The position numbers were made by a program, and so were the translations under genes. A DNA stretch of 64,000 bases from Patescibacteria group bacterium (GTDB taxonomy: Bacteria; Patescibacteriota; Patescibacteriia; UBA9570; JAHJKD01), in NCBI GenBank assembly GCA_041660885.1, contig JBAZVM010000003.1:38894-102893 (forward strand), in the 5' to 3' direction. Below, piece after piece: positions 10,880-44,052 of the stretch. Positions within the stretch are counted from its first letter, which is position 1. Every line of letters starts with the position of its first letter. Below the pieces are notes generated by a model, which was not told the DNA's origin, ran no database searches, and saw only the letters and a list, made by a program, of their open reading frames with translations.

Positions 10880-10904
10880 TAAATATTAGCGTTAATAAAC
10901 AAAT

Positions 10905-12674: not shown

Positions 12675-12700
12675 TACTTCGATAAACTCAGTATAAATAT

Positions 12701-14473: not shown

Positions 14474-14479
14474 ATAAAT

Positions 14480-16210: not shown

Positions 16211-16219
16211 TAAATAAAT

Positions 16220-18010: not shown

Positions 18011-18024
18011 TAATTTATTAATAT

Positions 18025-19797: not shown

Positions 19798-19810
19798 TTT
19801 TAATAATAAT

Positions 19811-21565
19811 ATGAAAAAATTATTACTCTGCGGAATAATATTTTCCGCTTTAATGGCTTTGCCGGCATTCGCGGCAGATTATTATGTAGACGGAGACGCG
19901 GGTAATGATCTAACTGGTTTGGGAACGGCAACGGCTCCATATCAAACCGTTACTAAAGCCGTTTCCGTAATGTCTGGCGGAGATACGGTTTATTGCAAAG
20001 GAACAATTATTGATTCAGTTACAATTGATGCTACCAAATCGGGCACCGCGGACAATCCAACTGTTTTTACTAGTTGGGAGGGATCTACTGGAATTATAGA
20101 CGGTAATAGTGCCGCTATCACCATGCAGGTTTCCGGCGATTATATTACAATACAGGGTTTAAGTATTGGGAATGGGACAAGCTATAGTTTAATATCGGTT
20201 GGAAACTATAATTATATCCATGAAAATACTTTTTTCTCTTCATCCGGAATAGCCACCTCTGTTAGCGTATACATGCAAAGTGGCACTAACGCAATTTTCA
20301 GCCATAATACGGTTTTTGGCGATGGAGATGATAATTTTGGTGTTTATTTACATGCCTCGCCTAACGCTTTAATAGAAAACAATACAGTTTACGGTTTTAA
20401 TAAATTTGGCGTTGCTTTGGAACAGGGATGCACAGACAGCGTAGTGAAAAATAATATAATATATAATATTGGCAGCGCTGATGTCTATACTTGGCCCGCC
20501 GCGTTAATAATTGCCGATGATCATGATATTCAAATAATTAATAACACTTTCTATAATACTTATAATGCCACTGTTAATTTTCCAGCTATTCGTCTTACAG
20601 AGCTTGGTATAGCGCAAACTTACGATATCACCATTAAGAATAATATATTTCATACGGCGAATATCGGCGTTTACGCGGATAGCGGAAGTTTTACCGGATC
20701 TAATTGCGATTATAATGATTATTATAATATTACTACGCATGGTTCCGTCGATGGAACGAATTATGCCACATTTGCCGAATGGCAGGGCTATTCCACCAAT
20801 GATGTTCATTCTTTAAATAGTGATCCATTATTCGTTTCAACCGCAACCGGCGCGCTCGACTCTCATTTGCAAGGTACTTCGCCAGCTATTGATGCCGGAA
20901 TCGATATAAGCGGATTAACAACGGATTACGATAATGAAACAAGGCCTTATAATATAACTGATATCGGCGCGGATGAGAGACCGGTTCTAAGCGTCACGCC
21001 GAATAATTTGCATGCCGTACCGTCTGTTAAAAATGCGGATATTTCTTGGGAAATGGATAGCAGTTATGCTGTTACCAGTTATAATGTAAAAATCGGTAAA
21101 TTAGATGATTTAAGCGATGGCGTGGTAGGTTCTCTTAACAGCGCGGATACTTCTTTAAATAACGCCGGCTTAAAACCCGCGCAAAAGTATTATTACGCGG
21201 TACAAGCTATTTACGCTACTGATTATCAAGAATATATATCTGATTATTCTAGCATCGCCAGTTTTTATACATATCCAAAAAAAGTTACGGAAGTGAAAGT
21301 GCCTGAAGCAAAGATTACTTCTACCAGCGCGCGCATTAAATGGAAGAAGCAAAACAGAGTTACCGGCTATACGGTAAAATTAATGGATAAGGATAAGCAT
21401 TTAATAAAATATTTTTCTGTTGATAGCGGCGATCATGCCACGGAGATAACCAATTTAAATTCGGACAAGAAATATAAAATTAAAGTCCGGTCAGAGAATA
21501 AAGTGGGGCAGACGATTTATGTGAGTAAATGGAGCAAGATCAAAACTTTCAGAACCGCGAATTAG
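19811..21565 (+). CDS. Secreted beta-helix/FN3 protein (paralog 6 of 7)
   Basis: ADYYVDGDAGNDLTGLGT..PYQTVTKAV..GGDTVYCKGT; SHLQGTSPAIDAG..TDYDNETRPYNITDIGADE; basic FN3 ending WSKIKTFRTAN. Confidence 0.8.
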   Translation: MKKLLLCGIIFSALMALPAFAADYYVDGDAGNDLTGLGTATAPYQTVTKAVSVMSGGDTVYCKGTIIDSVTIDATKSGTADNPTVFTSWEGSTGIIDGNSAAITMQVSGDYITIQGLSIGNGTSYSLISVGNYNYIHENTFFSSSGIATSVSVYMQSGTNAIFSHNTVFGDGDDNFGVYLHASPNALIENNTVYGFNKFGVALEQGCTDSVVKNNIIYNIGSADVYTWPAALIIADDHDIQIINNTFYNTYNATVNFPAIRLTELGIAQTYDITIKNNIFHTANIGVYADSGSFTGSNCDYNDYYNITTHGSVDGTNYATFAEWQGYSTNDVHSLNSDPLFVSTATGALDSHLQGTSPAIDAGIDISGLTTDYDNETRPYNITDIGADERPVLSVTPNNLHAVPSVKNADISWEMDSSYAVTSYNVKIGKLDDLSDGVVGSLNSADTSLNNAGLKPAQKYYYAVQAIYATDYQEYISDYSSIASFYTYPKKVTEVKVPEAKITSTSARIKWKKQNRVTGYTVKLMDKDKHLIKYFSVDSGDHATEITNLNSDKKYKIKVRSENKVGQTIYVSKWSKIKTFRTAN

Positions 21566-21568
21566 CTT

Positions 21569-21678
21569 TTAAAATCCAAGTAAACTTTTACTTCTTTATT
21601 CACTTTGCTCCACTTGATCTGCAAATCGCTTCCTTTAAAAGCGCGAGAGAGCTGCCGGCCGATGCTGACGGCTCTTTT
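21569..21678 (-). repeat. 110-bp direct repeat copy 1: orphan duplicate of the 3' end of the 130-aa gene (partner 23292-23401)
   Basis: ttaaaatccaagtaaacttttacttctttattcactttgctccac...gctgccggccgatgctgacggctctttt matches 23292-23401 with about 4 mismatches. Here it has no upstream coding continuation, so it is a gene-end remnant. Confidence 0.85.
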
Positions 21679-21784
21679 TGCGTCCGTGGGGCAGTTCTAC
21701 GAAGACTTTGATCAGGTGGAAGAGGGGGGGGGTGCCGGAAATTACTAAAGTCTAAGTAAAAATTTCACTTCTTTGCCTGCATTG

Positions 21785-23251
21785 TTACTGAATTTGGGAG
21801 GTTATTAAAAATATTCGATACTGTTCCAACAAATATTTTTCCAATTCCTTTTGATTTAATTCAGACAAATCAATATCGGTATGTTGAGGGAGATAAGATT
21901 TGAATTTTTCTAAGTTAGCAATCGAAGTAGGCTCATGTGCCAGACGCTCAATTATTCCTGTATCACGTTTTTGGTAATATTTTTCATACAAATCAGCTAA
22001 TAATGTACGATTATTGGCAACTAATCGTAATTTTCTTAAATATTTATTGGGTGTTAAATCAATATCTGTAATACCAGCTATTTGATAGGTATAACCATCA
22101 TAATTTACTCTTTTACCGGGTTCGTTTAAATCAGCACTAAAAATATATACTTCAGGTAAATCATCATCCCATTCTAATCCTTCATATCCTAATATGCGAT
22201 CTATTATAACTAAATATCTGCCTAGAACGTCCTTTATTTTCGCACCAACAGTAAGTGCCGAATAAGCATTCGGTCCTCTTTCTATTGATCCGATTGGAAC
22301 TGCAACTAAGCCTTGTGGAGCTCCTTCGGATACGTTCGTTATATGCCCTTTCAGTAAATAATAAAAACCACGAGGAGATAATAAAACATCTGAGTGCGAC
22401 TTTAAAGATGTTGAAGAACGTTCATCAGTGGCACTGACCCCCATTCCTTTGTCATGTGGTTTATTGCTTTCACCGTGAATATTCATATTTATATAATCTA
22501 TTCCTTTACCCCGTTTTTCTTGCTCGATTAATCGTTTTTTTGTAGCATTATCAAGAGTACGCATGCCATTTCTTTTTCGCACGGCGTTCAACCAATATTC
22601 ATCCTCGCTTCTAGTAATTATTTCACTAGTTTTAATATATTTTTTTGCCATGTCGTATAATTCTGCCCCTGTCCAAAGTGATTCACTTGAATCGATGCCA
22701 CGATAATCACCTAAATCCGATGCAAAATTTAATCTGGTGTAATAATTGTATGGAATCATTGAGTTTGGGTATTGGTAAAAGTTGTTAATACTGTCTTTAT
22801 ATTTTAAAAGGAGCGCTTCTAACTGCTGGGGCGCGATATGCCCGCGCACTCCTTTAACCGCGTCGAATCCGCAAAAAGGGCAACCATGAGAACAGCCAAA
22901 AGTCGGTTGGATGGATAATCTGTTAGTAAAAAGAAAATGCAGTTGATCCGCCGTAAACCGCTGTTCCAGCGCTATGGGTAATTCGCTGTTACTCCAGGCT
23001 TCGCCGTATTTATCGGCAAATATCCTATCAATAGCTTGTTTGACTATATTTGGAAAATATTTTTCATAATAACTGGCTATGGCCACATTGCGTGGATCGT
23101 TAAAAGATTGTTCCAAATACGCCTCTAATGCCCCTTCTTTTTCTATAAGACGGCGGAATAGATCTGCCATTTCTTTAGGGGTAAGCAGATAAAGATCCTG
23201 CTGCATCAAAGCTTGAATTTCTTGGCGCGGTGTACGACCTTCATGCGACAT
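21785..23251 (-). CDS. Hypothetical protein with a radical-SAM-like CX3CX2C cluster motif (488 aa)
   Basis: Long ORF. QPTFGCSHGCPFCGFDAV (about 22860-22915) has the G-C-x3-C-P-F-C spacing seen in radical SAM/activase cluster loops. No other domain was recognised by eye. Confidence 0.45.
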   Translation of the reverse strand: MSHEGRTPRQEIQALMQQDLYLLTPKEMADLFRRLIEKEGALEAYLEQSFNDPRNVAIASYYEKYFPNIVKQAIDRIFADKYGEAWSNSELPIALEQRFTADQLHFLFTNRLSIQPTFGCSHGCPFCGFDAVKGVRGHIAPQQLEALLLKYKDSINNFYQYPNSMIPYNYYTRLNFASDLGDYRGIDSSESLWTGAELYDMAKKYIKTSEIITRSEDEYWLNAVRKRNGMRTLDNATKKRLIEQEKRGKGIDYINMNIHGESNKPHDKGMGVSATDERSSTSLKSHSDVLLSPRGFYYLLKGHITNVSEGAPQGLVAVPIGSIERGPNAYSALTVGAKIKDVLGRYLVIIDRILGYEGLEWDDDLPEVYIFSADLNEPGKRVNYDGYTYQIAGITDIDLTPNKYLRKLRLVANNRTLLADLYEKYYQKRDTGIIERLAHEPTSIANLEKFKSYLPQHTDIDLSELNQKELEKYLLEQYRIFLITSQIQ

Positions 23252-23260
23252 AGAATACGT

Positions 23261-23653
23261 TTAATTGTCAGACGGGGAGTGCCGGACGTTATTAAAATCC
23301 AAGTAAACTTTTACTTCTTTATTCACTTTGCTCCACGTAATCTGCAAATCGCTTCCTTTGAAAGCGCGAGAGAGCTGCCGGCCGATGCTGACGGCTCTTT
23401 TCGGTTCGGTAAAATGAAAGATGATTTTATTTTCGCCTTTTTCGGTTTTACCGCGCTCGTTTTCACGGGTATGATTATCGATTAAATTAAATATTTCGTT
23501 TTGATTGGGTATGTTTTGGTAATTCGTTAAAATCAGTTCATTGGGTAAAATATTTTCCGGAAAATTTTTAGTTTTTTCCTGGCGGCCTCGCACCATGGAT
23601 TCTTTTTCCCTGATGTCTTTGCGCGTGAGCTTAGCTGGCTTGAAAAATGGCAT
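23261..23653 (-). CDS. Hypothetical 130-aa basic protein, upstream partner of the radical-SAM-like gene
   Basis: ORF ends 9 nt before the downstream minus-strand gene. Its last ~37 codons (..KRAVSIGRQLSRAFKGSDLQITWSKVNKEVKVYLDF..) are the sequence duplicated at 21569-21678. Confidence 0.6.
   Translation of the reverse strand: MPFFKPAKLTRKDIREKESMVRGRQEKTKNFPENILPNELILTNYQNIPNQNEIFNLIDNHTRENERGKTEKGENKIIFHFTEPKRAVSIGRQLSRAFKGSDLQITWSKVNKEVKVYLDFNNVRHSPSDN
23292..23401 (-). repeat. 110-bp direct repeat copy 2 (inside the 3' end of the 130-aa gene)
   Basis: See 21569-21678. Confidence 0.85.
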
Positions 23654-23678
23654 ACAAATAGAAGTTAAATAATTAATG

Positions 23679-23687
23679 TGCTATAAT
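23679..23687 (+). promoter_or_regulatory. Extended -10 promoter element (TGcTATAAT) for paralog 7
   Basis: tgtgcTATAAT at 23677-23687, 34 nt upstream of the ATG at 23721. It is the same 11-mer as at 10485-10495. Confidence 0.4.
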
Positions 23688-23720
23688 TTTAGCATAAAAT
23701 AAACTTAAATACTAATTACT

Positions 23721-25439
23721 ATGAAAAGAATTATTGTATTTACGGGGATTCTCATTATCTCTCTATTTTTAGTTAAAACCGGCTATGCCGCCGAGTATTA
23801 CATTGACGCCGCATCAGGCAACGATGCCAATGCCGGATCAGAGAGCGCCCCTTGGCAGAGTTTAAGCAAAATCAATTCTATCACCGGAGGAGATACGGTT
23901 TATTTAAAAGGCGATTTTGTTATTACCAGCCAAATTGATATTACTTCAGCTGTTTCCGGAACTTCATCTGATTATACAAGTATTAACATATGGCCCGGCT
24001 ATAACGCTCTCATTGATATAGCGCCAGATATATATAATCTAAACATACAAGCCAGTTATTTGGATATAAACAATTTGCAATTTCATAATAACGGCACATT
24101 GGCTGCCAATGGAAACGCAATAACATTGGCCGATGGCATTCAATATATTATAATTGACCATTGCAATTTCAGCGATGCGCAAAACGCCATTTATGGAGAT
24201 GGAACAGTCGGTGGTGGAATTTCCGAAGTGGAAATATCAGCCAATTGGTTTACCGGCAACTATAATGGAATAAAGTTAGACTATACTTCCAATGCCGATG
24301 TTTACAAAAATTATTTTTACAATAATAGCAATTATGGAGCCGATACTACTTATACTGATAATGTTTTAATAAACAATAATATTTTTTATTATAATAGGCA
24401 TGGAATTATTGAAGGGGGCAGTGCGGATTTGAAAATTTTGAACAATACTTTTTATCATAATACTTCTTATGGCATCGGGACTGAAATAACCACCAGCGTT
24501 TTAATTAAAAATAATATATTTGATAGCAATGATTATGCCTTGCTAAATATCCTGGGCACTAGTTTTGTAACCGATAATAATTTATTCAATAACAATAATT
24601 TCATCGGCGGCAGCGGTTTTCCTATTATAGATTATTCCGATTTATCTTCTTGGCAGGCGCTGGGTTTTGACGCCTCTTCTTTGGAAGGCGATCCCGTTTT
24701 TACATCCATTGCCAGCGGAACCGAAGATTTTAATTTATTAGCCGGTTCCCCGGCCATAGATAGCGGTTCGGATTTATCCGCTTATTTTTCGAGCGATTAT
24801 GCAAATTCGCCGCGGCCGCAAGGAAGCGCCTTTGATATCGGCGCATACGAGTATACTTCTCCGCCAACAAATTTAACTGCGGTTAATACTCAGGCAAAAG
24901 ATTTGACTTTGACATGGGATGCTTCTTGCACAAGTTGCACATATTCCTTGGCTTATTCTACGGTGGCAGATTTTTCCGCCAATGTTAATACAGTGGAAAA
25001 TATTTTAACAACCACGCAATTGGTTGACGGTTTAAAATCAGCCAAACAATATTATTGGAAAATAAAATCTAATAATGGTATTTATGATTCAGAATATACT
25101 TCCGTGTTAACCGCGCCAACAAAACCAAGCCAAGTGAAACAACTCCATATTAATAACATTACTAATAACGAGGCTGATTCAGAATGGGCAAAACAAAAGC
25201 GAGTAAAGCATTATATTGTGGCGTTAATGGACAGTAACCGCCATGTTCTCAGGAGAATAACTGTGCAAATCAGCCAATCTTATTTAACGGGCTCGGCTCG
25301 AAAAGTAAAAAAGACCATTACTCATCTTTCAGCTGATAAGGAATACAAGATAAAAGTGCGCGCAAAACGAAAAATGAATGGAACTTGGTATAAAGGAAAA
25401 TGGAGTGATGTAAAAACATTTGATACTTTAAGCAATTAA
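23721..25439 (+). CDS. Secreted beta-helix/FN3 protein (paralog 7 of 7, most divergent)
   Basis: AEYYIDAASGNDANAGSE..PWQSLSKI..GGDTVYLKGD; NN(I/T)FY beta-helix turns; DFNLLAGSPAIDSG...FDIGAYE; basic FN3 ending WSDVKTFDTLSN. Confidence 0.8.
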   Translation: MKRIIVFTGILIISLFLVKTGYAAEYYIDAASGNDANAGSESAPWQSLSKINSITGGDTVYLKGDFVITSQIDITSAVSGTSSDYTSINIWPGYNALIDIAPDIYNLNIQASYLDINNLQFHNNGTLAANGNAITLADGIQYIIIDHCNFSDAQNAIYGDGTVGGGISEVEISANWFTGNYNGIKLDYTSNADVYKNYFYNNSNYGADTTYTDNVLINNNIFYYNRHGIIEGGSADLKILNNTFYHNTSYGIGTEITTSVLIKNNIFDSNDYALLNILGTSFVTDNNLFNNNNFIGGSGFPIIDYSDLSSWQALGFDASSLEGDPVFTSIASGTEDFNLLAGSPAIDSGSDLSAYFSSDYANSPRPQGSAFDIGAYEYTSPPTNLTAVNTQAKDLTLTWDASCTSCTYSLAYSTVADFSANVNTVENILTTTQLVDGLKSAKQYYWKIKSNNGIYDSEYTSVLTAPTKPSQVKQLHINNITNNEADSEWAKQKRVKHYIVALMDSNRHVLRRITVQISQSYLTGSARKVKKTITHLSADKEYKIKVRAKRKMNGTWYKGKWSDVKTFDTLSN

Positions 25440-36087: not shown

Positions 36088-36744
36088 TTGAAAAAAATGC
36101 CCAATGATTTATTTTTAAAAAAATATCGAATCTCATCCGCGCGATTGCAACATTACGATTATTCATTATCCGGATATTATTTTGTTACCATTTGCGCCTG
36201 GCAAATGTTGCCGTATTTTGGAAAAATCGAAAATAATAAAATGGAATTATCGAAAATCGGTAAAATCGTGCGCGATCAATTATTAAAAACGGAAAAATTG
36301 CGGCGTACTGTACGATTGGATGAATGGGTAATCATGCCAAACCATGTGCACGCGATTATTGTAATTGACAATGCATTACGTTTTGTAGAGACGCATTGCA
36401 ATGCGTCTCTACACATTCACAATGCGTTTTCACGCCAACACAACGGCAATGCGTCTTTACGAAAACCACCGGCACGCATCCCATTACCCGAACGGTTACC
36501 ATGGCACCATGAAAAAAATAAATTCGGTCCGCAAAAAAATAATTTGCCGTCCATTATCCGCGGGTTCAAATCATCGGTGAAACGGATTTGCGATAAAAAT
36601 GGGGAACATAATTTTTGTTGGCAACCGCGATACCACGACCACATCATCCGTCACGAATATTCGTTGCGCATGATTCGGCGTTACATCAAACAAAACCCTT
36701 GCCAATGGGGAGGGATAGGAATAATAAAAAATGACCCTTATTAA
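36088..36744 (+). CDS. REP-associated tyrosine transposase (RayT, IS200/IS605 Y1 HUH family)
   Basis: YFVTICAW, HUH motif MPNHVHAIIV, and C-terminal WQPRYHDHIIRHE..IRRYIKQNPCQW. The real start may be the ATG at 36097. No IS ends or tnpB are present, so it is of the domesticated/RayT type. Confidence 0.75.
   Translation: MKKMPNDLFLKKYRISSARLQHYDYSLSGYYFVTICAWQMLPYFGKIENNKMELSKIGKIVRDQLLKTEKLRRTVRLDEWVIMPNHVHAIIVIDNALRFVETHCNASLHIHNAFSRQHNGNASLRKPPARIPLPERLPWHHEKNKFGPQKNNLPSIIRGFKSSVKRICDKNGEHNFCWQPRYHDHIIRHEYSLRMIRRYIKQNPCQWGGIGIIKNDPY
36385..36412. repeat. 28-bp perfect palindrome (REP-like) inside the RayT coding region, flanked by further half-sites
   Basis: GTAGAGACGCATTG|CAATGCGTCTCTAC read directly. 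Additional CAATGC(G/A)T half-sites lie at about 36369, 36419 and 36447. It is translated in frame as VETHCNASLH. Confidence 0.9.
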
Positions 36745-36907
36745 GGGTCATTTCCAACCACGTTCCTAGACCGGGTGTCCCGGCCACGCCACCGTCCAGT
36801 GACAGTTCGGAATACAGGTTTTTGTAAATACACAATATCACATCCTTTTTATTTGTCAAAAATACGAATTTGCCATATTATTATTAAACAATTTAAAGAA
36901 AGAAGTT

Positions 36908-37867
36908 ATGAATACAAATAATCAAATCATCATTTATAACACAGAAGACGGCCAAACAAAGATTGAGGTCAAAATTAAAAATGAGACCGTTTGGCTCAGC
37001 CAGGCACAAATGGCGGAATTATTTCAAAAAACTGTACCAACTATCAATGAACATATAAAAAATGTATTTTTAGAGAGAGAATTAACGGAGAATTCAACTA
37101 TTCGGAAATTCCGAATAGTTCAGAAAGAAGGGAAAAGGGTTGTTGAGAGAGATGTTGATCACTATAATCTTGATGTCATAATTTCAGTTGGTTACCGTGT
37201 TAGCTCTCACCAGGGCACGCAATTTCGCATTTGGGCAACGCAGAAATTAAAAGAGTACATCATCAAAGGTTTCGTTATGGACGATGAGCGCTTGGAAAGC
37301 GGTAATGTTTCTAAAACCTATTTTGAGGAATTAGAGGAGCGTATTCGTAAAATCCGCACTTCGGAAGCCAATTTTTATCAAAAGGTTAGGGATGTTTTCG
37401 CCACCAGCGCCGATTACAGTTCTAAAACCGATTACGCGCAGAAATTTTTTTCGGTCGTGCAAAACAAATTCCATTACGCGATTACCGGGTTGACCGCTTC
37501 TGAAATTGTGCATAGCCGCGTTGATAGCGGCAAGAAGAATTTAGGCCTTACCAATTGGAAAGGCGAAATAATCACCCGCGATCAAGCGCAAATTGCTAAA
37601 AATTATTTGGAAGAATTGGAAATTAAAAGATTGAATTTATTGGTTGAACAATTTTTATCGTTTGCTGAATTACAAAGCGTGGAAAAGAGAGTAATGTATA
37701 TGCGCGATTGGATTAGAAAATTAGACGATTTTTTAATCTTGAATGATAAGGAAATTTTGGGCAATTCGGGAAGTGTGTCGCATAAAAATATGGAACAGAA
37801 AGTTCGGGCGGAGTTAGAAAGGTATAATCAAAAAAAACTAAGTGATGTTAAAAAAATAAAGAAATAA
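36908..37867 (+). CDS. RhuM-family protein
   Basis: IIIYNTEDGQTKIEVKIKNETVWLSQAQMAELFQKTVPTINEHIKNVF...YNLDVIISVGYRVSSHQGTQFRIWAT is the RhuM family signature. Confidence 0.8.
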   Translation: MNTNNQIIIYNTEDGQTKIEVKIKNETVWLSQAQMAELFQKTVPTINEHIKNVFLERELTENSTIRKFRIVQKEGKRVVERDVDHYNLDVIISVGYRVSSHQGTQFRIWATQKLKEYIIKGFVMDDERLESGNVSKTYFEELEERIRKIRTSEANFYQKVRDVFATSADYSSKTDYAQKFFSVVQNKFHYAITGLTASEIVHSRVDSGKKNLGLTNWKGEIITRDQAQIAKNYLEELEIKRLNLLVEQFLSFAELQSVEKRVMYMRDWIRKLDDFLILNDKEILGNSGSVSHKNMEQKVRAELERYNQKKLSDVKKIKK

Positions 37868-38097: not shown

Positions 38098-38979
38098 ATG
38101 ATAAAAAAGATTAATGATAAAAAATATAAATTTATAGATTTATTCGCAGGAATAGGCGGTTTTCATTTAGCCTTCCATCAAGCAGGTGCGCGTTGTGTTT
38201 TTGCCAGCGAATGGGATGATAATGCCAGAAAAACATATGAGAAAAATTTTAAAAAAGTAGAGCCAGAGCTGTTCAAAAACAATAATTTTAAAGGTGATAT
38301 TACCAAGGTCAATGAAAAAGAGATACCTGAGTTTGATATTTTGACCGCAGGTTTTCCATGTCAGCCTTTCAGTCATGCTGGTTATAAAAAAGGATTTACC
38401 GATACAAGGGGAACTTTATTCTATGATATAGTCAGAATAATAAAAGATAAGAAGCCAGCGGCATTTTTCTTGGAAAATGTAAGCCATTTGTTAAAGCATG
38501 ATAATGGAAAAACATTCGCAGCAATAAAAAGAGTTATAGAGCACGATTTAAAATATTCATTTTATTATAAAATTGTTCGCGCGTCGGATTTTAATTTACC
38601 GCAACATAGGCCCCGTTTGTTTATGATAGGTTTTAGAAATAAAAATATTAAATTTAATTTTCCCGAACCGGTTAAACTCACAAAAACGATGACTGATATC
38701 TTCGGTGAAAAATGTGAGAAAAAAATAGGATACACTTTGCGTGTCGGCGGCAGAGGTTCGGGAATAAAGGATCGAAGGAATTGGGATTCTTATAGAGTTG
38801 CTGGTAAAATAAAAAGATTGACACCCACTGAAGGAAAAAAAATGATGGGTTTTCCAAATAATTTTATTTTTCCCGTTACTGAAACGCAAGCTATGAAGCA
38901 ATTAGGCAATGCAGTTGCCGTAAATGCGATATCGGCTACAGCAAAACAAATTGTTAATACGTTGAATCAATATGCTTAA
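38098..38979 (+). CDS. dcm: DNA (cytosine-5)-methyltransferase
   Basis: Motif I FIDLFAGIGGF, motif IV GFPCQPFS, motif VI FLENV, motif VIII QHRPRLFMIGF, and motif X QLGNAVAV. Confidence 0.92.
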   Translation: MIKKINDKKYKFIDLFAGIGGFHLAFHQAGARCVFASEWDDNARKTYEKNFKKVEPELFKNNNFKGDITKVNEKEIPEFDILTAGFPCQPFSHAGYKKGFTDTRGTLFYDIVRIIKDKKPAAFFLENVSHLLKHDNGKTFAAIKRVIEHDLKYSFYYKIVRASDFNLPQHRPRLFMIGFRNKNIKFNFPEPVKLTKTMTDIFGEKCEKKIGYTLRVGGRGSGIKDRRNWDSYRVAGKIKRLTPTEGKKMMGFPNNFIFPVTETQAMKQLGNAVAVNAISATAKQIVNTLNQYA

Positions 38980-40057
38980 AGGCAATAAAGGAGAATGGAG
39001 CGAAATATACGCCTTTTTAAAAATACTTGAAGAAGGTAAGCTTTTTGCCGCCGATGAAAATTTAAACAAATTGAAGAATAAATATTTTGATGTTTTAGAA
39101 ATAAGTCGAAACGAAGCAAAAACAGGTTTAAAAAAATACAATATTACGGAAAAATGGGGGTATATAAAAATTTCAGACGATAACAACCAACAAATTGAAA
39201 TTGTCGATAGAAATATATTGAGCGGCAAAATCGATAAAATTTTTGAAGAAATAAAGTCTGCTTCCTCGAGTTCTTTTGATATTCCCATTGCCGATGATCT
39301 CATGACAAAATTATATTGTTCGCAGATAAAAGCGGGAAGTCAAAAAAAAGCCGATCTGTTTTTAAAGATATATGATAGTGCGTCGCATGAATCGCTTGAT
39401 TTGGGTTTTAGTATCAAATCGATGTTGGGATCCGCTTCAACATTGCTTAATGCTTCTGGCGCAACAAATTTTATTTTTAGAATCAATAATAAAAAAGTTG
39501 ACTTGAACGGTATTAATAAAATTGTCGGAAAATCCAAAATTAGAGACAGAATGGAGCAAATTATTAAAGAAGGTGGCAGCATCGAGTATAGTGGAACTGA
39601 CAATCCAATTTTTAATCGTAACTTACGAAAGATAGACACAATATTTCCGATTATAATTGCCAATGCTCTTTTAAAATATTATCGGGGAGAAGGAGCCAAT
39701 ATTCAAGATTTAATCAAAGCACTGGCTATCGATAAAACTTTATCACATAAATATGATTTAAAAAATAGCGATTATTCTTACAAAATTAAAATTTTTTTAT
39801 CGGCTATCGCCTTGGGCATGACTCCGAATAAAGAATGGGACGGTTTTGCGACCGCGCATGGCGGTTATATCATTGTGAAAGAAAATGGTGAAGTTCTTTG
39901 CTATCATTTGAATAATCGCGATCAATTTGAAGAATATTTATTGAATAATACAAGACTTGAAACACCAAGTTCCACGCGTCATGAATACGGTGTTGTTTAT
40001 GAGGAAAAAGGTATTCAATATATTAAACTCAATTTACAAATTCGCTTTATTAAATAA
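38972..40057 (+). CDS. Type II restriction endonuclease, HpaII-like family
   Basis: The N-terminus GNKGEWSEIYAFLKILEEGKLFAADENLNKL resembles, from memory, the conserved N-terminus of the RE_HpaII family. It overlaps the methylase by 8 nt and the vsr start by 1 nt. Confidence 0.65.
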   Translation: MLKGNKGEWSEIYAFLKILEEGKLFAADENLNKLKNKYFDVLEISRNEAKTGLKKYNITEKWGYIKISDDNNQQIEIVDRNILSGKIDKIFEEIKSASSSSFDIPIADDLMTKLYCSQIKAGSQKKADLFLKIYDSASHESLDLGFSIKSMLGSASTLLNASGATNFIFRINNKKVDLNGINKIVGKSKIRDRMEQIIKEGGSIEYSGTDNPIFNRNLRKIDTIFPIIIANALLKYYRGEGANIQDLIKALAIDKTLSHKYDLKNSDYSYKIKIFLSAIALGMTPNKEWDGFATAHGGYIIVKENGEVLCYHLNNRDQFEEYLLNNTRLETPSSTRHEYGVVYEEKGIQYIKLNLQIRFIK

Positions 40058-40461
40058 TGACGGATATTTTTTCCAAAAAGAAAAGAAGCGAGATAATGGC
40101 AAAAGTGCGATATAAAGACAGTGCTATTGAAATTGCATTCAGAAAAGCATTGTGGCATAAAGGTTATAAATATAGAAAAAATTCTACAAAATATTTCGGT
40201 AAACCTGATTTAGTCCTAGCAAAACATAAAACGGTAATTTTTATTGATTCTTGTTTTTGGCATGGGTGTCCAAAGCATTATAGTTTACCAACGACAAGAA
40301 AAAAATTTTGGCGAAAAAAATTATTAAGGAACAGAGAAAGAGACAGAGAGGTGAACAAGTACTATAAAAGAAAGCACTGGCATCTAATAAGAATTTGGGA
40401 GCATTCAATTATTAATAATCTTGATAAAATAATAAAAAAAACAGCTATAAAACTAAATTAA
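40057..40461 (+). CDS. vsr: Very-short-patch repair endonuclease
   Basis: SEIMAKVRYKDSAIEIAFRKALWHKGYKYRKN...GKPDLVLAKHKTVIFIDSCFWHGCPKH is the Vsr signature. It follows a C5-methylase, which is the classical pairing. Confidence 0.88.
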   Translation: MTDIFSKKKRSEIMAKVRYKDSAIEIAFRKALWHKGYKYRKNSTKYFGKPDLVLAKHKTVIFIDSCFWHGCPKHYSLPTTRKKFWRKKLLRNRERDREVNKYYKRKHWHLIRIWEHSIINNLDKIIKKTAIKLN

Positions 40462-40496: not shown

Positions 40497-41735
40497 ATGC
40501 TTGAAAAAACTTGGAAAAAAATTGAAAAAGATGTTGATTTTTTGATAAAAAATGCAACTATTAATAGTGAACCACTAGCACATTCTTATCTAGTCAAACA
40601 ACAAATAGACGGAAAATTTATTAATCTTAATAACAACGGTTATGATGCTTATAAAAAAATAATATTTACATTATTATCGTTTAGTAATATCGAAGCACAT
40701 TTTATTGATAAAGACATAGAGGACCTAGTTACTAAGAGTATTAGAGTTAACAAAGAAAAATTCAAGGATATTTTTTTATCAAATCTAGATAAAATATTAA
40801 ATGATGTAAAAACAGAGGAATATACTATTTATATTCCTATATATAATATTAGGCTTAGTGATAATTGGAAATTCGCAGATGTTGAATTAATATCTCCTCA
40901 TAACATTAATTTAATTAAAGAGTTGAACGAAGCAAAAGATGTAAAGTCGTTGAAAGACGAAGGGGCATGTTTAGCTCGTATATATTTAAGGGGATATAGC
41001 TGTAAAAAAAGCAGCATTTTGGCTGAAGAAAGAGTATTAAAAATTATTAATATAATCTATTTAATAATTTCGAATCAAAGTTCATGGGTAGAAAATATAA
41101 ACGCATTGTATCAAAAAAAATGGTTTACAAATATAAAAATTATTATTGATAATAAAAATAACAAAAGCCAGACAAATTATGAGAGACAGGACAAAGATAT
41201 TATTTCATTATTAGATTTAAATCAATATATTAGTTTATTTAATAATAAATTCGCTAAAAAATGTGAAGAGATTATATTAAATAATAATAAAGATTATTTA
41301 CAAAAAAAAATTATTCATTCTTTGGATTGGTTTGGTAAAGGTGTAGATGCTATTGGTGTAGAAAAGATTTTGTATCATTGTATAGCCCTGGAAATATTAT
41401 TAACTCAAGATATAGATAATGAATCTCATTATAATTTAAAGAGTTCTACTCAGCAAATATCAGAGAGGGGCGCTTTTTTATTAGGAAAAAATTTTATTGA
41501 TAGAATATTTTTTTCAAAAAGTCTAAAAAAAATTTATCGTCTAAGGAGCGAAATAGTACATAGTGGTAAGCAGAGAGTCGAATTTCTTAAAATTTTAGAA
41601 ACGCAGATATTAACAGCTAAAATTATTTTTGCGGTCATTCAATTATCAAAAAATATAAAAACTCAAGAAAAATATAATGAATATTTTGAAAAATTATTAT
41701 TTTCTTGTACCGATGATAATCGGCATATACCATAA
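40497..41735 (+). CDS. Hypothetical 412-aa protein with a C-terminal HEPN-like (Rx4H) domain
   Basis: Very AT-rich ORF. The C-terminal helical region ..ILYHCIALEILLT...KKIYRLRSEIVHSGK.. contains the R-x4-H motif in the Y.LRS.IVH.G context typical of HEPN nuclease families. The N-terminal ~270 aa were not recognised. Confidence 0.55.
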   Translation: MLEKTWKKIEKDVDFLIKNATINSEPLAHSYLVKQQIDGKFINLNNNGYDAYKKIIFTLLSFSNIEAHFIDKDIEDLVTKSIRVNKEKFKDIFLSNLDKILNDVKTEEYTIYIPIYNIRLSDNWKFADVELISPHNINLIKELNEAKDVKSLKDEGACLARIYLRGYSCKKSSILAEERVLKIINIIYLIISNQSSWVENINALYQKKWFTNIKIIIDNKNNKSQTNYERQDKDIISLLDLNQYISLFNNKFAKKCEEIILNNNKDYLQKKIIHSLDWFGKGVDAIGVEKILYHCIALEILLTQDIDNESHYNLKSSTQQISERGAFLLGKNFIDRIFFSKSLKKIYRLRSEIVHSGKQRVEFLKILETQILTAKIIFAVIQLSKNIKTQEKYNEYFEKLLFSCTDDNRHIP

Positions 41736-41760
41736 CGCAAAGCATATTTATTAATGAAAA

Positions 41761-41944
41761 AACCTCCAACCCCCCATCTCCACCCTCACCCCCGCCCCGC
41801 GGCGGGTAGAGAGACGAGGGACACACTCACCGAATGGGCTAGTAAAAGGAGGGGTTCCATTTTGGAACTTGAAGGTTTGACCATTATAATATAATTGTTT
41901 AATATATTTACATAGGCGCCCCTTTGCGGCGCTTTTTTTGTTTT
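41761..41944 (+). repeat. 184-bp direct repeat R, copy A (partner 42800-42983)
   Basis: aacctccaacccc...ccccgcggcgggtagagagacgaggg.acacactcaccgaatgggctagtaaaaggaggggttccatttt...taattgtttaatatatttacataggcgcccctttgcggcgctttttttgtttt. The two copies are collinear, with substitutions clustered in the C-rich 5' part and around 41875-41895. Confidence 0.9.
41916..41939 (+). terminator. Rho-independent terminator inside repeat copy A
   Basis: GCGCC-cctttgc-GGCGC followed by T7. Confidence 0.7.
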
Positions 41945-41976
41945 TTAATTTTTATTTTTAATAAAATAACGACAAT

Positions 41977-42801
41977 ATGAAAAAAATTATTACAAAAGGA
42001 CTGCAAATATGCATGTTTCAGAAAAATAAGAAGGATTATATATCTCTAACCGATATAGCCAGATATAAGAATCGTGTTGAGCCAAGAGATGTAATTAAAA
42101 ATTGGATGCGTAATAGAAGTACCATTGAATTTATTGGGTTTTGGGAGAAACTGAATAACCCCAATTTTAAAGAGGTCGAATTCGACCTCTTTAAAAAAGA
42201 AGCCGGTAATAACGCTTTTGTGCTTACGCCACAAAAGTGGATCGAAATAACAAATGCTATTGGAATTATTTCTAAATCTGGCAAATATGGGGGTGGCACT
42301 TTTGCCCATAAAGACATTGCTTTTGAATTTGCTTCCTGGATAAGTGCGGAATTTAAACTTTATTTGATTAAAGAATTCCAAAGATTAAAAGAAGAAGAAA
42401 ATGCGCGTTTGGCTCTTGGCTGGGATACGAAACGCATGTTAACCAAAATTAACTATCGTATTCACACGGACGCCATTAAAGCGCATTTAATTCCAAAACG
42501 GTTGCCAAAAGCGAAAATAAACATGATTTATGCCAATGAAGCGGATGTATTGAACATGGCTTTATTTGGTTTGACTGCCAAAGAATGGCGAGAAAAGAAT
42601 AAAAATCTTGATGGTAATATACGCGATTACGCGGATGTCGCCCAGCTTGTGTGCTTGGCGAATTTGGAAACTTTTAACGCTGAATTTATTAGAAAGGGGA
42701 TAAAACAATCAGACCGATTGTTAAATCTAAACGAAATCGCGATCGTTCAAATGAAATCGTTAATAAATAATTCCAGTTTAAAAAAATTATTACCTAAATA
42801 A
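41977..42801 (+). CDS. KilA-N domain protein
   Basis: ISLTDIARYKN...VIKNWMRNRSTIEFIGFWEKLNNPNF...GGGTFAHKDIAFEFASWIS is the KilA-N DNA-binding domain signature. Confidence 0.75.
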   Translation: MKKIITKGLQICMFQKNKKDYISLTDIARYKNRVEPRDVIKNWMRNRSTIEFIGFWEKLNNPNFKEVEFDLFKKEAGNNAFVLTPQKWIEITNAIGIISKSGKYGGGTFAHKDIAFEFASWISAEFKLYLIKEFQRLKEEENARLALGWDTKRMLTKINYRIHTDAIKAHLIPKRLPKAKINMIYANEADVLNMALFGLTAKEWREKNKNLDGNIRDYADVAQLVCLANLETFNAEFIRKGIKQSDRLLNLNEIAIVQMKSLINNSSLKKLLPK

Positions 42802-42983
42802 CCTCCAACCCCCATCCCCACCCCCACCTCTGCCCCGCGGCGGGTAGAGAGACGAGGGGACACACTCACCGAATGGGCTAGTAAAAGGAGGGGTTCCATT
42901 TTAGAATATGAAAGTTTGACCTTTATAAAATAATTGTTTAATATATTTACATAGGCGCCCCTTTGCGGCGCTTTTTTTGTTTT
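42800..42983 (+). repeat. 184-bp direct repeat R, copy B
   Basis: See 41761-41944. It starts inside the stop codon of the KilA-N gene. Confidence 0.9.
42955..42978 (+). terminator. Rho-independent terminator inside repeat copy B
   Basis: GCGCC-cctttgc-GGCGC followed by T7, identical to copy A. Confidence 0.7.
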
Positions 42984-43029: not shown

Positions 43030-44052
43030 ATGGAAAATTATCAGGTTCTAAACAGTGATTTTATGAAAAAAAAGGAGCAACAATCAAAAATCGTCATTTA
43101 TCAAACCAATGATGGGCAAACTAAGGTAACTGTTCATTTTAAAGATGAAACCGTTTGGCTTACTATTGATCAAATGGCGGAATTATTTAACAAAAGCCGT
43201 TCTACTATAAATGAGCATATTTTGAATATTTATGCCGAAAAAGAGCTGAATGAAGCTGAATCTGTGAGAAAAATCGGAAATTCCGATTTTTCTACAAAGC
43301 CTACAAATTTCTATAATTTAGATGTCATTATTTCCGTTGGTTATCGCGTAAAATCCAAAAGAGGCACGCAGTTTCGTATTTGGGCGAATAAAATATTAAA
43401 ACAGTATTTGCTTCAAGGTTATGCAATAAATGAAAAAAGACTGCTTGAAGCGCAAAATAAATTCCACGAATTGCAGGAAGCGGTTTTATTTTTGCAAAAG
43501 CAATCCAAAAAAGAATTGCTTTCCGGCCAAGTGGCGGAAATATTAAATTTATTGGCGGACTATTCCAAGACTCTTTCTTTATTAAATGGGTATGATAAAG
43601 GAGAATTGGCAGATAAAAAGGGGAGAAAAACAAAATTCGTTTTGAAATATAAAGATTGCGCGAAAATAATTGCGGAAGTGAAAAAGGAATTAATCGCCAA
43701 GAAAGAAGCGGGAAATTTATTCGGGCGAGAAAGAGATAAAAGTTTTGATGGAATAATTAAAGGTTTATACCAAACTTTTTCCAAGAAAGAATTGTATCCC
43801 ACCATTGAAGCCAAAGCTTCACATTTGCTTTATCTCATTATCAAAGACCATCCGTTTGTAGACGGCAATAAAAGAACCGCCGCGTTTTTATTCGTTTATT
43901 TTTTAGATAAAACAGGTTACCTTTTCAAGGAGACCGGCGAAAGAAAAATAAATGATAACGCTTTAACCGCGCTAGCCTTGCTTGTTGCCGAAAGCGATCC
44001 GAAAGACAAGGAAGTGATGATTAAGATTATAAAGAATTTATTAGCGGAATAA
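43030..44052 (+). CDS. RhuM-Fic/Doc family fusion protein
   Basis: The N-terminal ~120 aa are homologous to the RhuM gene at 36908 (IVIYQTNDGQTKVTVHFKDETVWL..YNLDVIISVGYRVKSKRGTQFRIWAN). The C-terminus has the Fic/Doc motif HPFVDGNKRTA. Confidence 0.8.
   Translation: MENYQVLNSDFMKKKEQQSKIVIYQTNDGQTKVTVHFKDETVWLTIDQMAELFNKSRSTINEHILNIYAEKELNEAESVRKIGNSDFSTKPTNFYNLDVIISVGYRVKSKRGTQFRIWANKILKQYLLQGYAINEKRLLEAQNKFHELQEAVLFLQKQSKKELLSGQVAEILNLLADYSKTLSLLNGYDKGELADKKGRKTKFVLKYKDCAKIIAEVKKELIAKKEAGNLFGRERDKSFDGIIKGLYQTFSKKELYPTIEAKASHLLYLIIKDHPFVDGNKRTAAFLFVYFLDKTGYLFKETGERKINDNALTALALLVAESDPKDKEVMIKIIKNLLAE

What the first reader, a model, noticed from the sequence alone, without database searches (positions are those of the whole stretch)
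41761..42983. 184-bp direct repeats bracket a single KilA-N gene: a one-gene cassette with its own terminator module
Repeat R (41761-41944 and 42800-42983) begins at or within 26 nt of the stop codon of the preceding gene. It has four parts in order:
- a C-rich tract
- a GC-rich core (ccccgcggcgggtagagagacgaggg.acacactcaccgaatgggctagtaaaaggaggggttcc)
- an AT-rich segment
- an identical strong terminator (GCGCC-cctttgc-GGCGC-T7)

The two copies flank exactly one gene, giving a unit length of 1,039 bp. Substitutions cluster in the C-rich tract and around the TTGACC-like segment, while the core and terminator are nearly invariant.

Together with the 110-bp repeats around the radical-SAM-like gene, this is a second example in this window of a single gene flanked by long direct repeats. 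That suggests a recombination-based cassette capture or exchange mechanism that needs no dedicated integrase in cis. Alternatively, R may encode a conserved 3'-UTR or small RNA.
Basis: partly seen in the sequence, partly recalled or inferred. Interest (0 to 1): 0.6.

Follow-up and report, generated by a model that had tools for sequence, protein, structure and literature searches.

The report
Single defence gene inserted with target duplication
The two 190-bp repeats are most likely one stretch of local DNA that was duplicated when a widely travelling one-gene unit (a KilA-N "phage-defence candidate") was inserted next to a restriction-modification system, a known but mechanistically unexplained way for genes to enter bacterial genomes.

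Summary
Two direct repeats (41748-41944 and 42787-42983, about 92-93% identical, 1,039 bp apart) bracket one KilA-N gene, and each ends in an identical terminator-like hairpin.

R does not travel with the gene. It was absent from 83 other KilA-N loci, GTDB genomes, JGI metagenomes, IMG/VR, plasmids, phages and Rfam.

Flanking repeats do recur in this gene family. 12 of 71 KilA-N homologues from many phyla carry lineage-specific direct repeats of 50 nt or more, against 6 of 386 neighbouring ORFs (p = 7e-7). The repeated DNA is arbitrary local sequence: the 3' end of the upstream ORF, a spacer, or the leader and first codons of the downstream gene. The insert is always about one ORF.

The window's second repeat pair duplicates the last ~40 codons of an ORF around a radical-SAM-like gene.

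This matches "insertion with long target duplication" (Nobusato 2000; Furuta 2010), described until now for restriction-modification genes. The cargo here is PADLOC candidate PDC-S22, in an HpaII-type defence island. No empty site could be retrieved, so the insertion is inferred.

Separately, the KilA-N ORF contains a 13-bp hairpin kept by compensatory codon changes across 82 homologues.

The parts
41748..41944 (+). R1, the upstream copy of the direct repeat. Under the proposed reading it is the copy of the duplicated target that stays attached to the upstream 412-aa gene. It comprises a C-rich tract, a GC-rich core, an AT-rich segment and a terminator-like hairpin.
42787..42983 (+). R2, the downstream copy of the direct repeat. 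Its left edge supplies the last codons (L-P-K) and the stop codon of the KilA-N ORF.
41914..41944 (+). Terminator-like hairpin (AGGCGCC-CCTTTGC-GGCGCTT) plus T run, at the 3' end of R1
42953..42983 (+). Identical terminator-like hairpin plus T run, at the 3' end of R2
41945..41976 (+). 32-nt AT-rich leader between R1 and the KilA-N start codon. It is the left part of the inserted unit and is not conserved in other lineages.
41977..42801 (+). KilA-N gene (274 aa), the sole cargo. It matches Pfam KilA-N (E = 6e-22) and PADLOC phage-defence candidate PDC-S22 over its full length (E = 2e-132). More than 8,000 homologues at 60-78% identity occur across many phyla.
42166..42195 (+). 30-nt perfect palindrome inside the KilA-N ORF (codons F64-K73). 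It forms a 13-bp hairpin with an AAUU loop and is kept across the family by compensatory codon changes.
40497..41735 (+). Upstream neighbour: an orphan 412-aa gene (24% G+C) with no family match. Its only database match is itself, in a Patescibacteria MAG.
43030..44052 (+). Downstream neighbour: a RhuM/Fic-DOC gene that matches PADLOC candidate PDC-S23
38098..40461 (+). HpaII-type restriction-modification system plus Vsr: C5 methyltransferase 38098-38979, HpaII endonuclease 38972-40057, Vsr 40057-40461. This is the core of the defence island.
21569..21687 (-). Second example in the window, distal repeat copy. It is a now non-coding duplicate of the last ~40 codons of the 130-aa ORF and still carries the ancestral ending '...YLDFKS*'.
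23292..23410 (-). Second example, proximal repeat copy. It lies within the 3' part of the 130-aa ORF (23261-23653, minus strand), whose reading frame now runs on into the insert.
21785..23251 (-). Second example, the inserted single gene (488 aa). Its radical-SAM match is weak and below Pfam's cut-off.

Best explanation
R1 and R2 are the two copies of a long target duplication. In a Patescibacteria genome, the spacer between an orphan 412-aa gene and a RhuM/Fic gene carried one copy of R. That spacer lies in a defence island built around an HpaII-type restriction-modification system. R served as the upstream gene's 3' untranslated region and intrinsic terminator.

A minimal, horizontally promiscuous unit was inserted at the 3' edge of R. 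The unit consists of the KilA-N ORF (PADLOC candidate PDC-S22) with a 32-nt leader and no trailer. About 197 bp of target ended up on both sides of it.

Consequences of this geometry:
- The upstream gene keeps its terminator.
- KilA-N gains a copy of that terminator, and its last three codons and stop codon come from R2.
- The downstream gene keeps its upstream context.

No element-encoded integrase, terminal inverted repeats or conserved ends are involved, so the insertion is made by host recombination or repair. Two routes fit:
- joining of the incoming DNA at staggered breaks, followed by fill-in;
- a single homologous crossover of a circular intermediate that already carried a copy of the target.

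**What is shown:** the repeat architecture, the ORF-only insert, the lack of mobility genes, the enrichment of such repeats in this family, and the arbitrary, local nature of the repeated DNA.

**What is inferred:** that the ancestral site had a single R, and how the duplication is made.
For: **Lineage-specific repeats recur around KilA-N.** Direct repeats of 50 nt or more flank 12 of 71 KilA-N homologues from many phyla, against 6 of 386 other ORFs in the same loci. Fisher p = 7e-7.

**The repeated DNA is whatever lies at the site.**
- The last 51-101 nt of the upstream ORF, ending at its stop codon (L057, L028).
- Intergenic DNA (L013, L026, this window).
- The leader plus the first 8 codons of the downstream Bro-N gene (L064, 107 nt, 100% identical).
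- 300 nt of the downstream Bro-N gene's 5' end (L072).

**The insert is always about one ORF.**
- It measures 842-1,023 nt in 11 of 12 cases.
- The leaders are not conserved, and there are no terminal inverted repeats.

**The events have different ages.** Repeat identity ranges from 74% to 100%.

**R is not part of the gene's baggage.** There is no R homologue in 83 KilA-N loci or in any collection scanned.

**The window holds a second, cleaner case.**
- 119 nt encoding the C-terminus of a 130-aa ORF are duplicated on either side of one inserted gene.
- The ancestral stop codon is preserved in the distal copy.

**The architecture matches published cases of restriction-modification genes.** Those carry 46-423-bp flanking repeats at 93-100% identity, with no mobility gene (PMC2853133).

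**The context fits.**
- KilA-N = PDC-S22 and RhuM/Fic = PDC-S23 are genes typically found embedded in restriction-modification or BREX loci.
- The island genes are 24-34% G+C, against 40-44% for the adjacent rpsB and tsf.
Against: - No empty site (a single R between the 412-aa gene and RhuM/Fic) could be retrieved. The upstream gene is an orphan, and the only other contigs of this organism are short and break inside R. The polarity of the event, insertion rather than some other rearrangement, is therefore inferred by analogy.
- The copy number of R in the rest of the genome is unknown.
- R1 and R2 differ at about 7-8% of positions, unevenly distributed (P about 0.01). This would also fit selection on a functional element, or a donor and recipient that already differed.
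- In L013 three copies of a terminator-promoter-leader module flank two successive genes, and two copies are shared right up to the start codon. This looks more like a reused expression module than two clean target duplications.
- The comparison set is the 80 best-scoring loci, not a random sample.
Confidence: 0.6

Rival explanations
1. R is a functional, reusable module: a terminator plus promoter or 5' leader, or a 3'-UTR-derived small RNA. It is kept in front of or behind each defence gene and serves as portable homology for swapping cassettes by homologous recombination.
For: - The hairpin-plus-T-run and a 46-nt core are identical in both copies, while differences cluster elsewhere.
- L013 and L064 show arrays in which successive genes share the same intergenic module, in L013 right up to the start codon.
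- Both R copies sit 32-46 nt upstream of a PDC gene.
Against: - R occurs nowhere else in any data searched.
- There is no Rfam match, and neither strand folds better than shuffled sequence (z = -0.3 to -1.8).
- Translated R finds no called ORFs.
- In other lineages the repeats are coding fragments of neighbouring genes (L057, L028, L072, and window 21569 / 23292), which cannot all be regulatory modules.
- The promoter-like match would start transcription right at the terminator hairpin, and such matches are at chance frequency.
Confidence: 0.17
2. KilA-N lies by chance between two members of a dispersed genomic repeat family (REP- or MITE-like), perhaps connected with the IS200-like Y1 transposase gene 5 kb away.
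For: - A weak Y1_Tnp match lies at 36088-36744.
- A short-read contig of the same organism breaks inside R.
- Furuta et al. list 'chance insertion between repeats' as one class.
Against: - There are only two copies in 64 kb, exactly bracketing one gene.
- The contig break is already explained by these two copies.
- R is 197 nt and not palindromic overall.
- The same one-gene bracketing recurs with unrelated sequences in 11 other lineages.
Confidence: 0.1
3. R1 and R2 are attL and attR of a site-specific recombination event: an integron-like attC, a Xer site, or an integrase acting in trans.
For: The arrangement is direct repeats bracketing a single cassette-like gene in the same orientation as its neighbours.
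Against: - No integrase was found among the genes annotated from 32.9 to 46.4 kb.
- There is no GTTRRRY core in R, and the insert ends lack an attC-like inverted-repeat architecture.
- Repeat lengths (50-300 nt) and sequences differ completely between lineages, which is unlike a recombinase core site.
Confidence: 0.04
4. R is a cis-regulatory leader (a riboswitch- or attenuator-like aptamer plus terminator) that controls KilA-N and RhuM/Fic.
For: The order GC-rich core, terminator hairpin, 32-46 nt, start codon resembles a transcription-attenuation leader, and it stands before two defence-candidate genes.
Against: - There is no Rfam hit even at E <= 10.
- Folding is not significant.
- No obvious anti-terminator alternative was seen.
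- There is no upstream promoter above chance.
- No homologues exist for a covariation test.
- The one-sided R1/R2 changes in the C-tract strengthen a stem in R2 only and are not compensatory (sequence inspection).
Confidence: 0.05

Closest known systems
Insertion with long target duplication (Nobusato et al. 2000; Furuta, Abe & Kobayashi 2010, NAR 38:2428, PMC2853133)
   Same: - A short gene unit with no integrase or transposase is bracketed by long direct repeats (46-423 bp in the literature, about 197 and 119 bp here). The repeats are unique local sequence and 93-100% identical.
- The repeat can overlap the 3' end of the neighbouring gene.
- Single-gene cases are known (mcrA, orphan methyltransferase).
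- The cases are associated with restriction-modification loci.
   Different: - The cargo is not a restriction-modification gene. It is a KilA-N DNA-binding-domain protein (PDC-S22) and, in the second case, a radical-SAM-like gene.
- The host is a Patescibacteria (CPR) bacterium.
- The empty site that defines the published cases was not available.
- The enrichment across one gene family in many phyla (17% against 1.6%) has not, to my knowledge, been reported.
Genes 'embedded' in defence systems: PADLOC phage-defence candidates (Payne et al. 2024, bioRxiv 10.1101/2024.01.29.577857)
   Same: - KilA-N matches PDC-S22 and RhuM/Fic matches PDC-S23 / S05 over their full length.
- They lie in the same orientation next to a restriction-modification system.
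- Their neighbours in other loci are further PDC singles: Bro-N (S13) and ORF6N/RhuM (S05).
   Different: - That work defines the families by context and does not address how embedding happens.
- Here the genes sit beside a type II system rather than between the genes of a type I, BREX or DISARM system.
- Defence activity of PDC-S22 is untested.
Integration next to a duplicated gene end by temperate elements (for example e14 / phage 21 in icd, or tRNA-targeting islands)
   Same: The inserted DNA is flanked by diverged direct repeats that include the end of a host gene, so the host gene stays intact.
   Different: Those elements carry an integrase and recombine at a fixed core within the repeat. 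Here the insert holds a single non-recombinase ORF, and the repeat sequences and lengths are unrelated between lineages. This comparison rests on general knowledge and was not tested here.
Integron gene cassettes / attC
   Same: One-gene units in an array, in the same orientation, separated by repeated elements.
   Different: No IntI integrase, no attC core or architecture, and the repeats are ordinary local DNA, including coding sequence.

Membership tests
Insertion with long target duplication (Furuta et al. 2010 criteria) | Inserted segment flanked by direct repeats longer than 30 bp | tested here: met
   About 197 nt at 92-93% identity. The second case is 119 nt at 94%.
Insertion with long target duplication (Furuta et al. 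2010 criteria) | No mobility gene (integrase, transposase, phage gene) in or next to the insert, and an insert shorter than 20 kb | tested here: met
   The insert is 842 nt and holds only the KilA-N ORF. The nearest mobility-like gene is a weak Y1_Tnp match 5 kb away.
Insertion with long target duplication (Furuta et al. 2010 criteria) | The repeat is not a high-copy dispersed element | tested here: inconclusive
   Two copies in the 64-kb window and none in any public collection scanned. The rest of this genome could not be read.
Insertion with long target duplication (Furuta et al. 2010 criteria) | A related genome shows an empty site with one copy of the repeat | not testable with these tools
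   No relatives could be retrieved. The 412-aa gene is an orphan. Exact-protein look-ups return only short contigs of the same organism.
Insertion with long target duplication (Furuta et al. 2010 criteria) | The inserted genes are restriction-modification genes (as the class was originally described) | tested here: not met
   The cargo is a KilA-N / PDC-S22 gene. It lies 1.5 kb from an HpaII system. This criterion concerns the cargo, not the mechanism.
PADLOC PDC-S22 (phage-defence candidate) | Full-length match to the family HMM | tested here: met
   E = 2.1e-132, residues 2-271 against profile positions 5-273 of 281
PADLOC PDC-S22 (phage-defence candidate) | Anti-phage activity | not testable with these tools
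   The family is only a candidate, proposed from guilt-by-embedding.
Integron cassette / attC | attC with inverted R''-L'' / L'-R' arms and a GTTRRRY core, and an IntI integrase nearby | tested here: not met
   No GTTRRRY within R. No such inverted repeats. No integrase among the genes annotated from 32.9 to 46.4 kb.
IS element, transposon or MITE | Terminal inverted repeats and a short target-site duplication | tested here: not met
   Only weak AT-rich inverted matches at the insert ends. The insert ends are not conserved across 12 lineages.
Known RNA family (Rfam 15), including riboswitches and sRNAs | Covariance-model match at or near the gathering score | tested here: not met
   No match in R at the gathering threshold. 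Only chance-level hits at E <= 10.
Type III toxin-antitoxin (ToxIN-like) | Tandem short RNA repeats followed by a terminator, upstream of the toxin gene | tested here: not met
   The only tandem repeats in R are ACCCCC x3.5 and a T-rich run.
Intrinsic (Rho-independent) terminator | GC-rich stem, 3-8 nt loop, followed by a U tract | tested here: met
   7-bp stem with 5 G-C pairs, a 7-nt loop and T7 in both copies. Function was not tested.

The most novel reading that the evidence does not exclude
PDC-S22 KilA-N genes are semi-autonomous one-gene mobile units. Long target duplication is their insertion footprint, and more generally the route by which small defence genes become 'embedded' in defence loci. 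The covarying hairpin conserved inside the ORF is the cis-acting site that the KilA-N protein recognises, for mobilisation or for control of its own mRNA. In one locus (L029) free-standing copies of this hairpin flank the gene, and in another (L025) a truncated older copy ends right at it.
Probability: 0.15. Interest if true: 0.85.

Novelty: new member of a known kind. Interest (0 to 1): 0.5.

Why it matters
How single defence genes come to sit inside or beside other defence systems is an open question. The paper that defined these candidates leaves the mechanism unexplored. A repeat footprint that recurs in about one in six members of one such family, across many phyla, ties this 'embedding' to the long-known but unexplained 'insertion with long target duplication'. 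It also offers a tractable model: a roughly 850-bp unit, events of many ages, and a geometry in which the neighbouring genes stay intact.

For genome annotation the lesson is practical. Long direct repeats around a lone gene in such islands should be read as duplicated local DNA, not as a new RNA or recombination element.

The in-ORF hairpin is a separate lead. It is a clear case of nucleic-acid structure dictating amino-acid pairs in a widespread protein.

Tried and rejected
**Searches for R elsewhere.**
- Exact-pattern scans with three core segments found nothing in IMG/VR, GTDB genomes or JGI metagenomes.
- blastn against plasmids and phages found nothing.
- A chimeric query of R translated in the open frames of both strands, run against the 5.8-billion-protein set, found nothing.
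- nhmmer with an R profile against 83 KilA-N loci found only a short contig of the same organism.

**R as an RNA.**
- Rfam at the gathering score and at E <= 10 gave no meaningful match.
- Folding of both strands was not better than shuffles.

**Empty site.**
- Exact-protein look-ups for KilA-N, RhuM/Fic (two start codons), the 412-aa protein and RpsB returned only two short Logan contigs from one run, SRR18595301.
- A homologue search with the 412-aa protein returned only itself.

**Other leads dropped.**
- *C-rich tracts as a general target feature.* They are not clearly enriched near KilA-N (2 of 80 against 3 of 1,157). Dropped.
- *KilA-N ORFs generally reading out of the unit into the target.* The C-terminal tails vary, but the commonest ending is a canonical KKLK*. 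I kept this only for this window.
- *E. coli as a natural empty-versus-filled experiment.* One of 5,426 genomes carries a homologue, but within a larger island next to dinD. Not informative.
- *Structure of KilA-N.* The AlphaFold model was poor (pLDDT 57), so no fold search was run. A profile search against PDB sequences was empty.
- *attC core, tandem repeats and terminal inverted repeats.* None were present.
Full report
**1.

Two direct repeats bracket a single ORF.
- blastn aligns 41758-41944 with 42800-42983 at 93.5% identity over 185 nt.
- A global alignment places the left edge about 10 nt further out (41748 / 42787) and counts 16 differences in 198 columns.
- Start-to-start spacing is 1,038-1,039 nt.
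- nhmmer and blastn find no third copy in the 64-kb window.

- The C-rich tract reaches 16 C in 20 nt.
- The core is about 60% G+C, in a window of 38.7%.
- An AT-rich segment follows.
- Both copies end in an identical hairpin plus T7 that the terminator scan picks up.

The uneven spread of differences is modest evidence. The clean stretches are 54 and 46 nt long, with permutation P of about 0.01 for both together. The TTGACC-N17-TAATAT match is present in both copies. However, promoter-like matches here are at chance frequency (33 found, 28.7 expected), and transcription from it would begin at the terminator hairpin.

**2. Context.**

The repeats lie in an AT-rich island between lepB and rpsB-tsf. 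Its contents, in order:
- a weak IS200-like Y1 transposase match (36088-36744);
- a DUF3800-IX RNA (36752-36820, minus strand);
- a RhuM gene (36908-37867);
- a C5 methyltransferase, the HpaII endonuclease and Vsr (38098-40461);
- an orphan 412-aa gene;
- R1, KilA-N, R2;
- a RhuM/Fic-DOC gene.

Island genes are 24-34% G+C, against 40-44% for rpsB and tsf.

KilA-N is a full-length match to PADLOC's phage-defence candidate PDC-S22 (E = 2e-132). RhuM/Fic matches PDC-S23 (E = 1e-123). These candidate families were defined because they are found embedded in type I restriction-modification, BREX and DISARM loci. The defining paper leaves open how embedding happens.

The 412-aa protein matches only itself, annotated at NCBI in a 'Patescibacteria group bacterium' MAG.

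**3. R is not a known or a travelling element.**
- Rfam gives nothing in R at the gathering score, and only chance-level hits at E <= 10.
- Neither strand folds better than shuffled sequence (z between -0.3 and -1.8).
- Core 20-22-mers are absent from IMG/VR, GTDB species representatives and JGI metagenomes. R is also absent from plasmids and phages.
- Translated R finds no called ORF among 5.8 billion proteins.
- An HMM of R finds nothing in 83 other KilA-N loci.
- The only other sighting is a 1.6-kb Logan contig of the same organism. It ends inside the stretch shared by R1 and R2, as expected at a repeat in a de Bruijn assembly.

**4. The gene is the travelling part, and flanking repeats are a family trait.**

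KilA-N has more than 8,000 homologues at 60-78% identity. They occur in CPR phyla, Bacteroidota, Campylobacterota, Gammaproteobacteria, Spirochaetes and archaea. It is rare in phages (14 records), present on 25 plasmids, and found in 1 of 5,426 complete E. coli genomes.

I compared the 600 nt upstream and downstream of each gene in 80 GTDB loci plus the window.
- Direct repeats of 50 nt or more flank 12 of 71 KilA-N genes, against 6 of 386 other ORFs. Fisher p = 7e-7.
- The repeats are unrelated between lineages.
- Their content is whatever lies at the site:
  - the last 51 or 101 nt of the upstream ORF, ending at its stop codon (L057, L028);
  - spacer DNA (L013, L026, this window);
  - the leader plus the first eight codons of the downstream Bro-N gene (L064, 107 nt, 100% identical);
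  - 300 nt of the 5' end of the downstream Bro-N gene (L072).
- The DNA between the repeats is always about one ORF (842-1,023 nt in 11 of 12 cases). Leaders are non-conserved (19-156 nt in most), and there are no inverted termini.
- Repeat identity runs from 74% to 100%, so these are independent events of different ages.

Some of the few repeat-flanked 'other' genes are themselves PDC-type singles: RhuM and an AntA-like gene. KilA-N's neighbours are often Bro-N, ORF6N or RhuM genes.

**5. The second case in the window is cleaner.**

The 119-nt pair (21569-21687 and 23292-23410, 94% identical) duplicates the last ~40 codons of a minus-strand 130-aa ORF, on either side of one inserted 488-aa gene.
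- The distal copy still reads '...KVYLDFKS*'.
- The proximal copy, attached to the ORF body, reads on into the insert ('...YLDFNNVRHSPSDN*').

A coding 3' end repeated as a non-coding fragment beyond an inserted gene is hard to explain other than by duplication of the target.

**6. Interpretation.**

This architecture is the one Kobayashi's group named 'insertion with long target duplication'. Their cases are gene units without mobility genes, flanked by 46-423-bp unique direct repeats at 93-100% identity. The repeats sometimes overlap a neighbouring gene's 3' end. Comparison with empty sites shows them to be duplicated target. The cases include single genes and occur mostly in naturally competent bacteria, and the mechanism is unknown (PMC2853133).

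I therefore read R as the pre-existing 3' UTR and terminator of the 412-aa gene, duplicated when an ORF-only KilA-N unit entered at its 3' edge. In the window the right junction lies within the last codons. The family's usual ending is '...KKLK*', whereas here it is '...KKL-LPK*', and the LPK* is encoded by the left edge of R2.

The geometry explains why such insertions survive in tightly packed islands. Both neighbours keep their own ends and signals, and the newcomer borrows a terminator (as here) or a leader and start codon (as in L064).

How the duplication is made is not shown. Two routes are candidates:
- joining at staggered breaks with fill-in;
- a Campbell-type single crossover of a circle carrying one copy of the target.

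**7. What weakens this.**
- No empty site could be obtained, so the polarity is inferred.
- The copy number of R in the rest of the genome is unknown.
- The 7-8% unevenly distributed divergence between R1 and R2 would also fit a selected element.
- In L013, three copies of a terminator-promoter-leader module flank two successive genes, and two of them are shared right up to the start codon. This is closer to a reused expression module than to two clean duplications.

I put the target-duplication reading at about 0.6. The rivals are:
- a functional or portable module, about 0.17;
- a chance position between dispersed repeats, about 0.1;
- a regulatory leader, about 0.05;
- a site-specific att site, about 0.04.

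**8. An unexpected feature inside the gene.**

The KilA-N ORF contains a perfect palindrome, TTTAAAGAGGTCGAATTCGACCTCTTTAAA (42166-42195, codons F64-K73). In 82 homologues the palindrome is maintained by compensatory codon changes. Examples are CCC/GGG, CTG/CAG, GAG/CTC, CAC/GTG, AGC/GCT and CGT/ACG. GTC..GAC switches to ATC..GAT or CTC..GAG, and AAC..GTT to AAT..ATT.

Formal counts on the 13-bp stem:
- 96.1% of cells are paired.
- 8 of 13 pairs show changes on both sides.
- 136 cells have double changes, against 33 +/- 4 in shuffles.
- The covariation score is 0.396, against 0.116 in shuffles.
- All measures collapse when the partners are slid by one to three columns.

Imperfect pairs are G.U-type on the sense strand 57 times and A.C-type 7 times. 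This points to a sense-strand RNA, or single-stranded DNA, hairpin rather than a duplex binding site. In the window the hairpin folds at -18.9 kcal/mol (z = -7.9).

A covariance model finds the following.
- One copy in the window, and one in the E. coli homologue.
- Free-standing non-coding copies with different stems but the same CGAATTCG centre, flanking the gene in L029.

In L025, an older truncated KilA-N copy ends right after the hairpin, and the next copy starts about 10 nt later.

I found no description of this element. Its role is unknown. Candidates are autoregulation through the mRNA, a processing site, or a cis site for the protein. I found no link between it and R.

**9. Verdict.**

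R is most likely duplicated local DNA, not a new RNA or recombination module. That makes this a new member, with a non-restriction-modification cargo and a CPR host, of a known but unexplained kind of insertion. Two results go beyond the window: the enrichment of the footprint across the PDC-S22 family, and the covarying in-ORF hairpin.

Noticed in passing
window 42166-42195 (+), inside the KilA-N ORF; also L002-L084 and L086: A 30-nt perfect palindrome forms a 13-bp hairpin with an AAUU loop in codons F64-K73. Compensatory codon changes keep it in 82 homologues from many phyla.
- 96% of cells are paired, and 8 of 13 pairs change on both sides.
- Sense-strand G.U pairs number 57, against 7 A.C pairs.
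- It has no Rfam family, and I found no description in the literature.
   Followed up: yes
L029 4784-4940 and 5842-5897; L025 5001-5346; L058 647-1244; L050 4950-4984: Free-standing, non-coding copies of the same hairpin motif flank KilA-N in L029. They share the CGAATTCG centre but have different stems. In L025 and L058, truncated N-terminal KilA-N fragments carrying the hairpin stand in tandem before the full-length gene, and L050 has an extra copy of the hairpin just upstream of the gene. In L025 the fragment ends right after the hairpin.
   Followed up: partly
window 21569-21687 and 23292-23410, with the gene 21785-23251 (-): A second single-gene insertion with a 119-nt duplication of the 3' coding end of a 130-aa ORF. 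The ancestral stop codon is preserved in the distal copy. The inserted gene has only a weak, sub-threshold radical-SAM match and no PADLOC, NCBIfam or PHROG hit.
   Followed up: yes
window 36752-36820 (-), next to 36088-36744 (+): A DUF3800-IX RNA (Rfam RF02968, 51.7 bits, above its gathering score) lies 8 nt from the end of an ORF with a weak IS200-like Y1 transposase match, and just upstream of a RhuM gene (36908-37867).
   Followed up: no
window ~10900-25400: A run of paralogous genes of about 1.75-1.8 kb encodes secreted beta-helix / fibronectin-III proteins (Beta_helix, NosD, fn3). Their shared signal-peptide starts and internal segments account for most of the other direct-repeat families in the window.
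   Followed up: partly
L013 3648-3794, 4793-4976, 5839-6000: In a Saccharibacteria genome, three copies of one intergenic module (terminator hairpin, TTGACT promoter-like site, leader) separate an AntA-like gene, KilA-N and the next gene. The first two copies are shared right up to the start codon.
   Followed up: partly
L072 2546-7947: Here KilA-N sits between the methyltransferase-like and specificity-like genes of a type I restriction-modification system. My reading of those two genes rests on sequence motifs only and was not scanned. It carries an in-frame stop and is flanked by a 300-nt duplication of the 5' end of a Bro-N (PDC-S13) gene.
   Followed up: partly
L086 (E. coli 2022CK-00450, NZ_CP104681.1 68674-69531): Only 1 of 5,426 complete E. 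coli genomes carries a homologue detectable at the DNA level. It lies at the edge of a multi-gene island next to dinD and also has the in-ORF hairpin (38.8 bits).
   Followed up: partly
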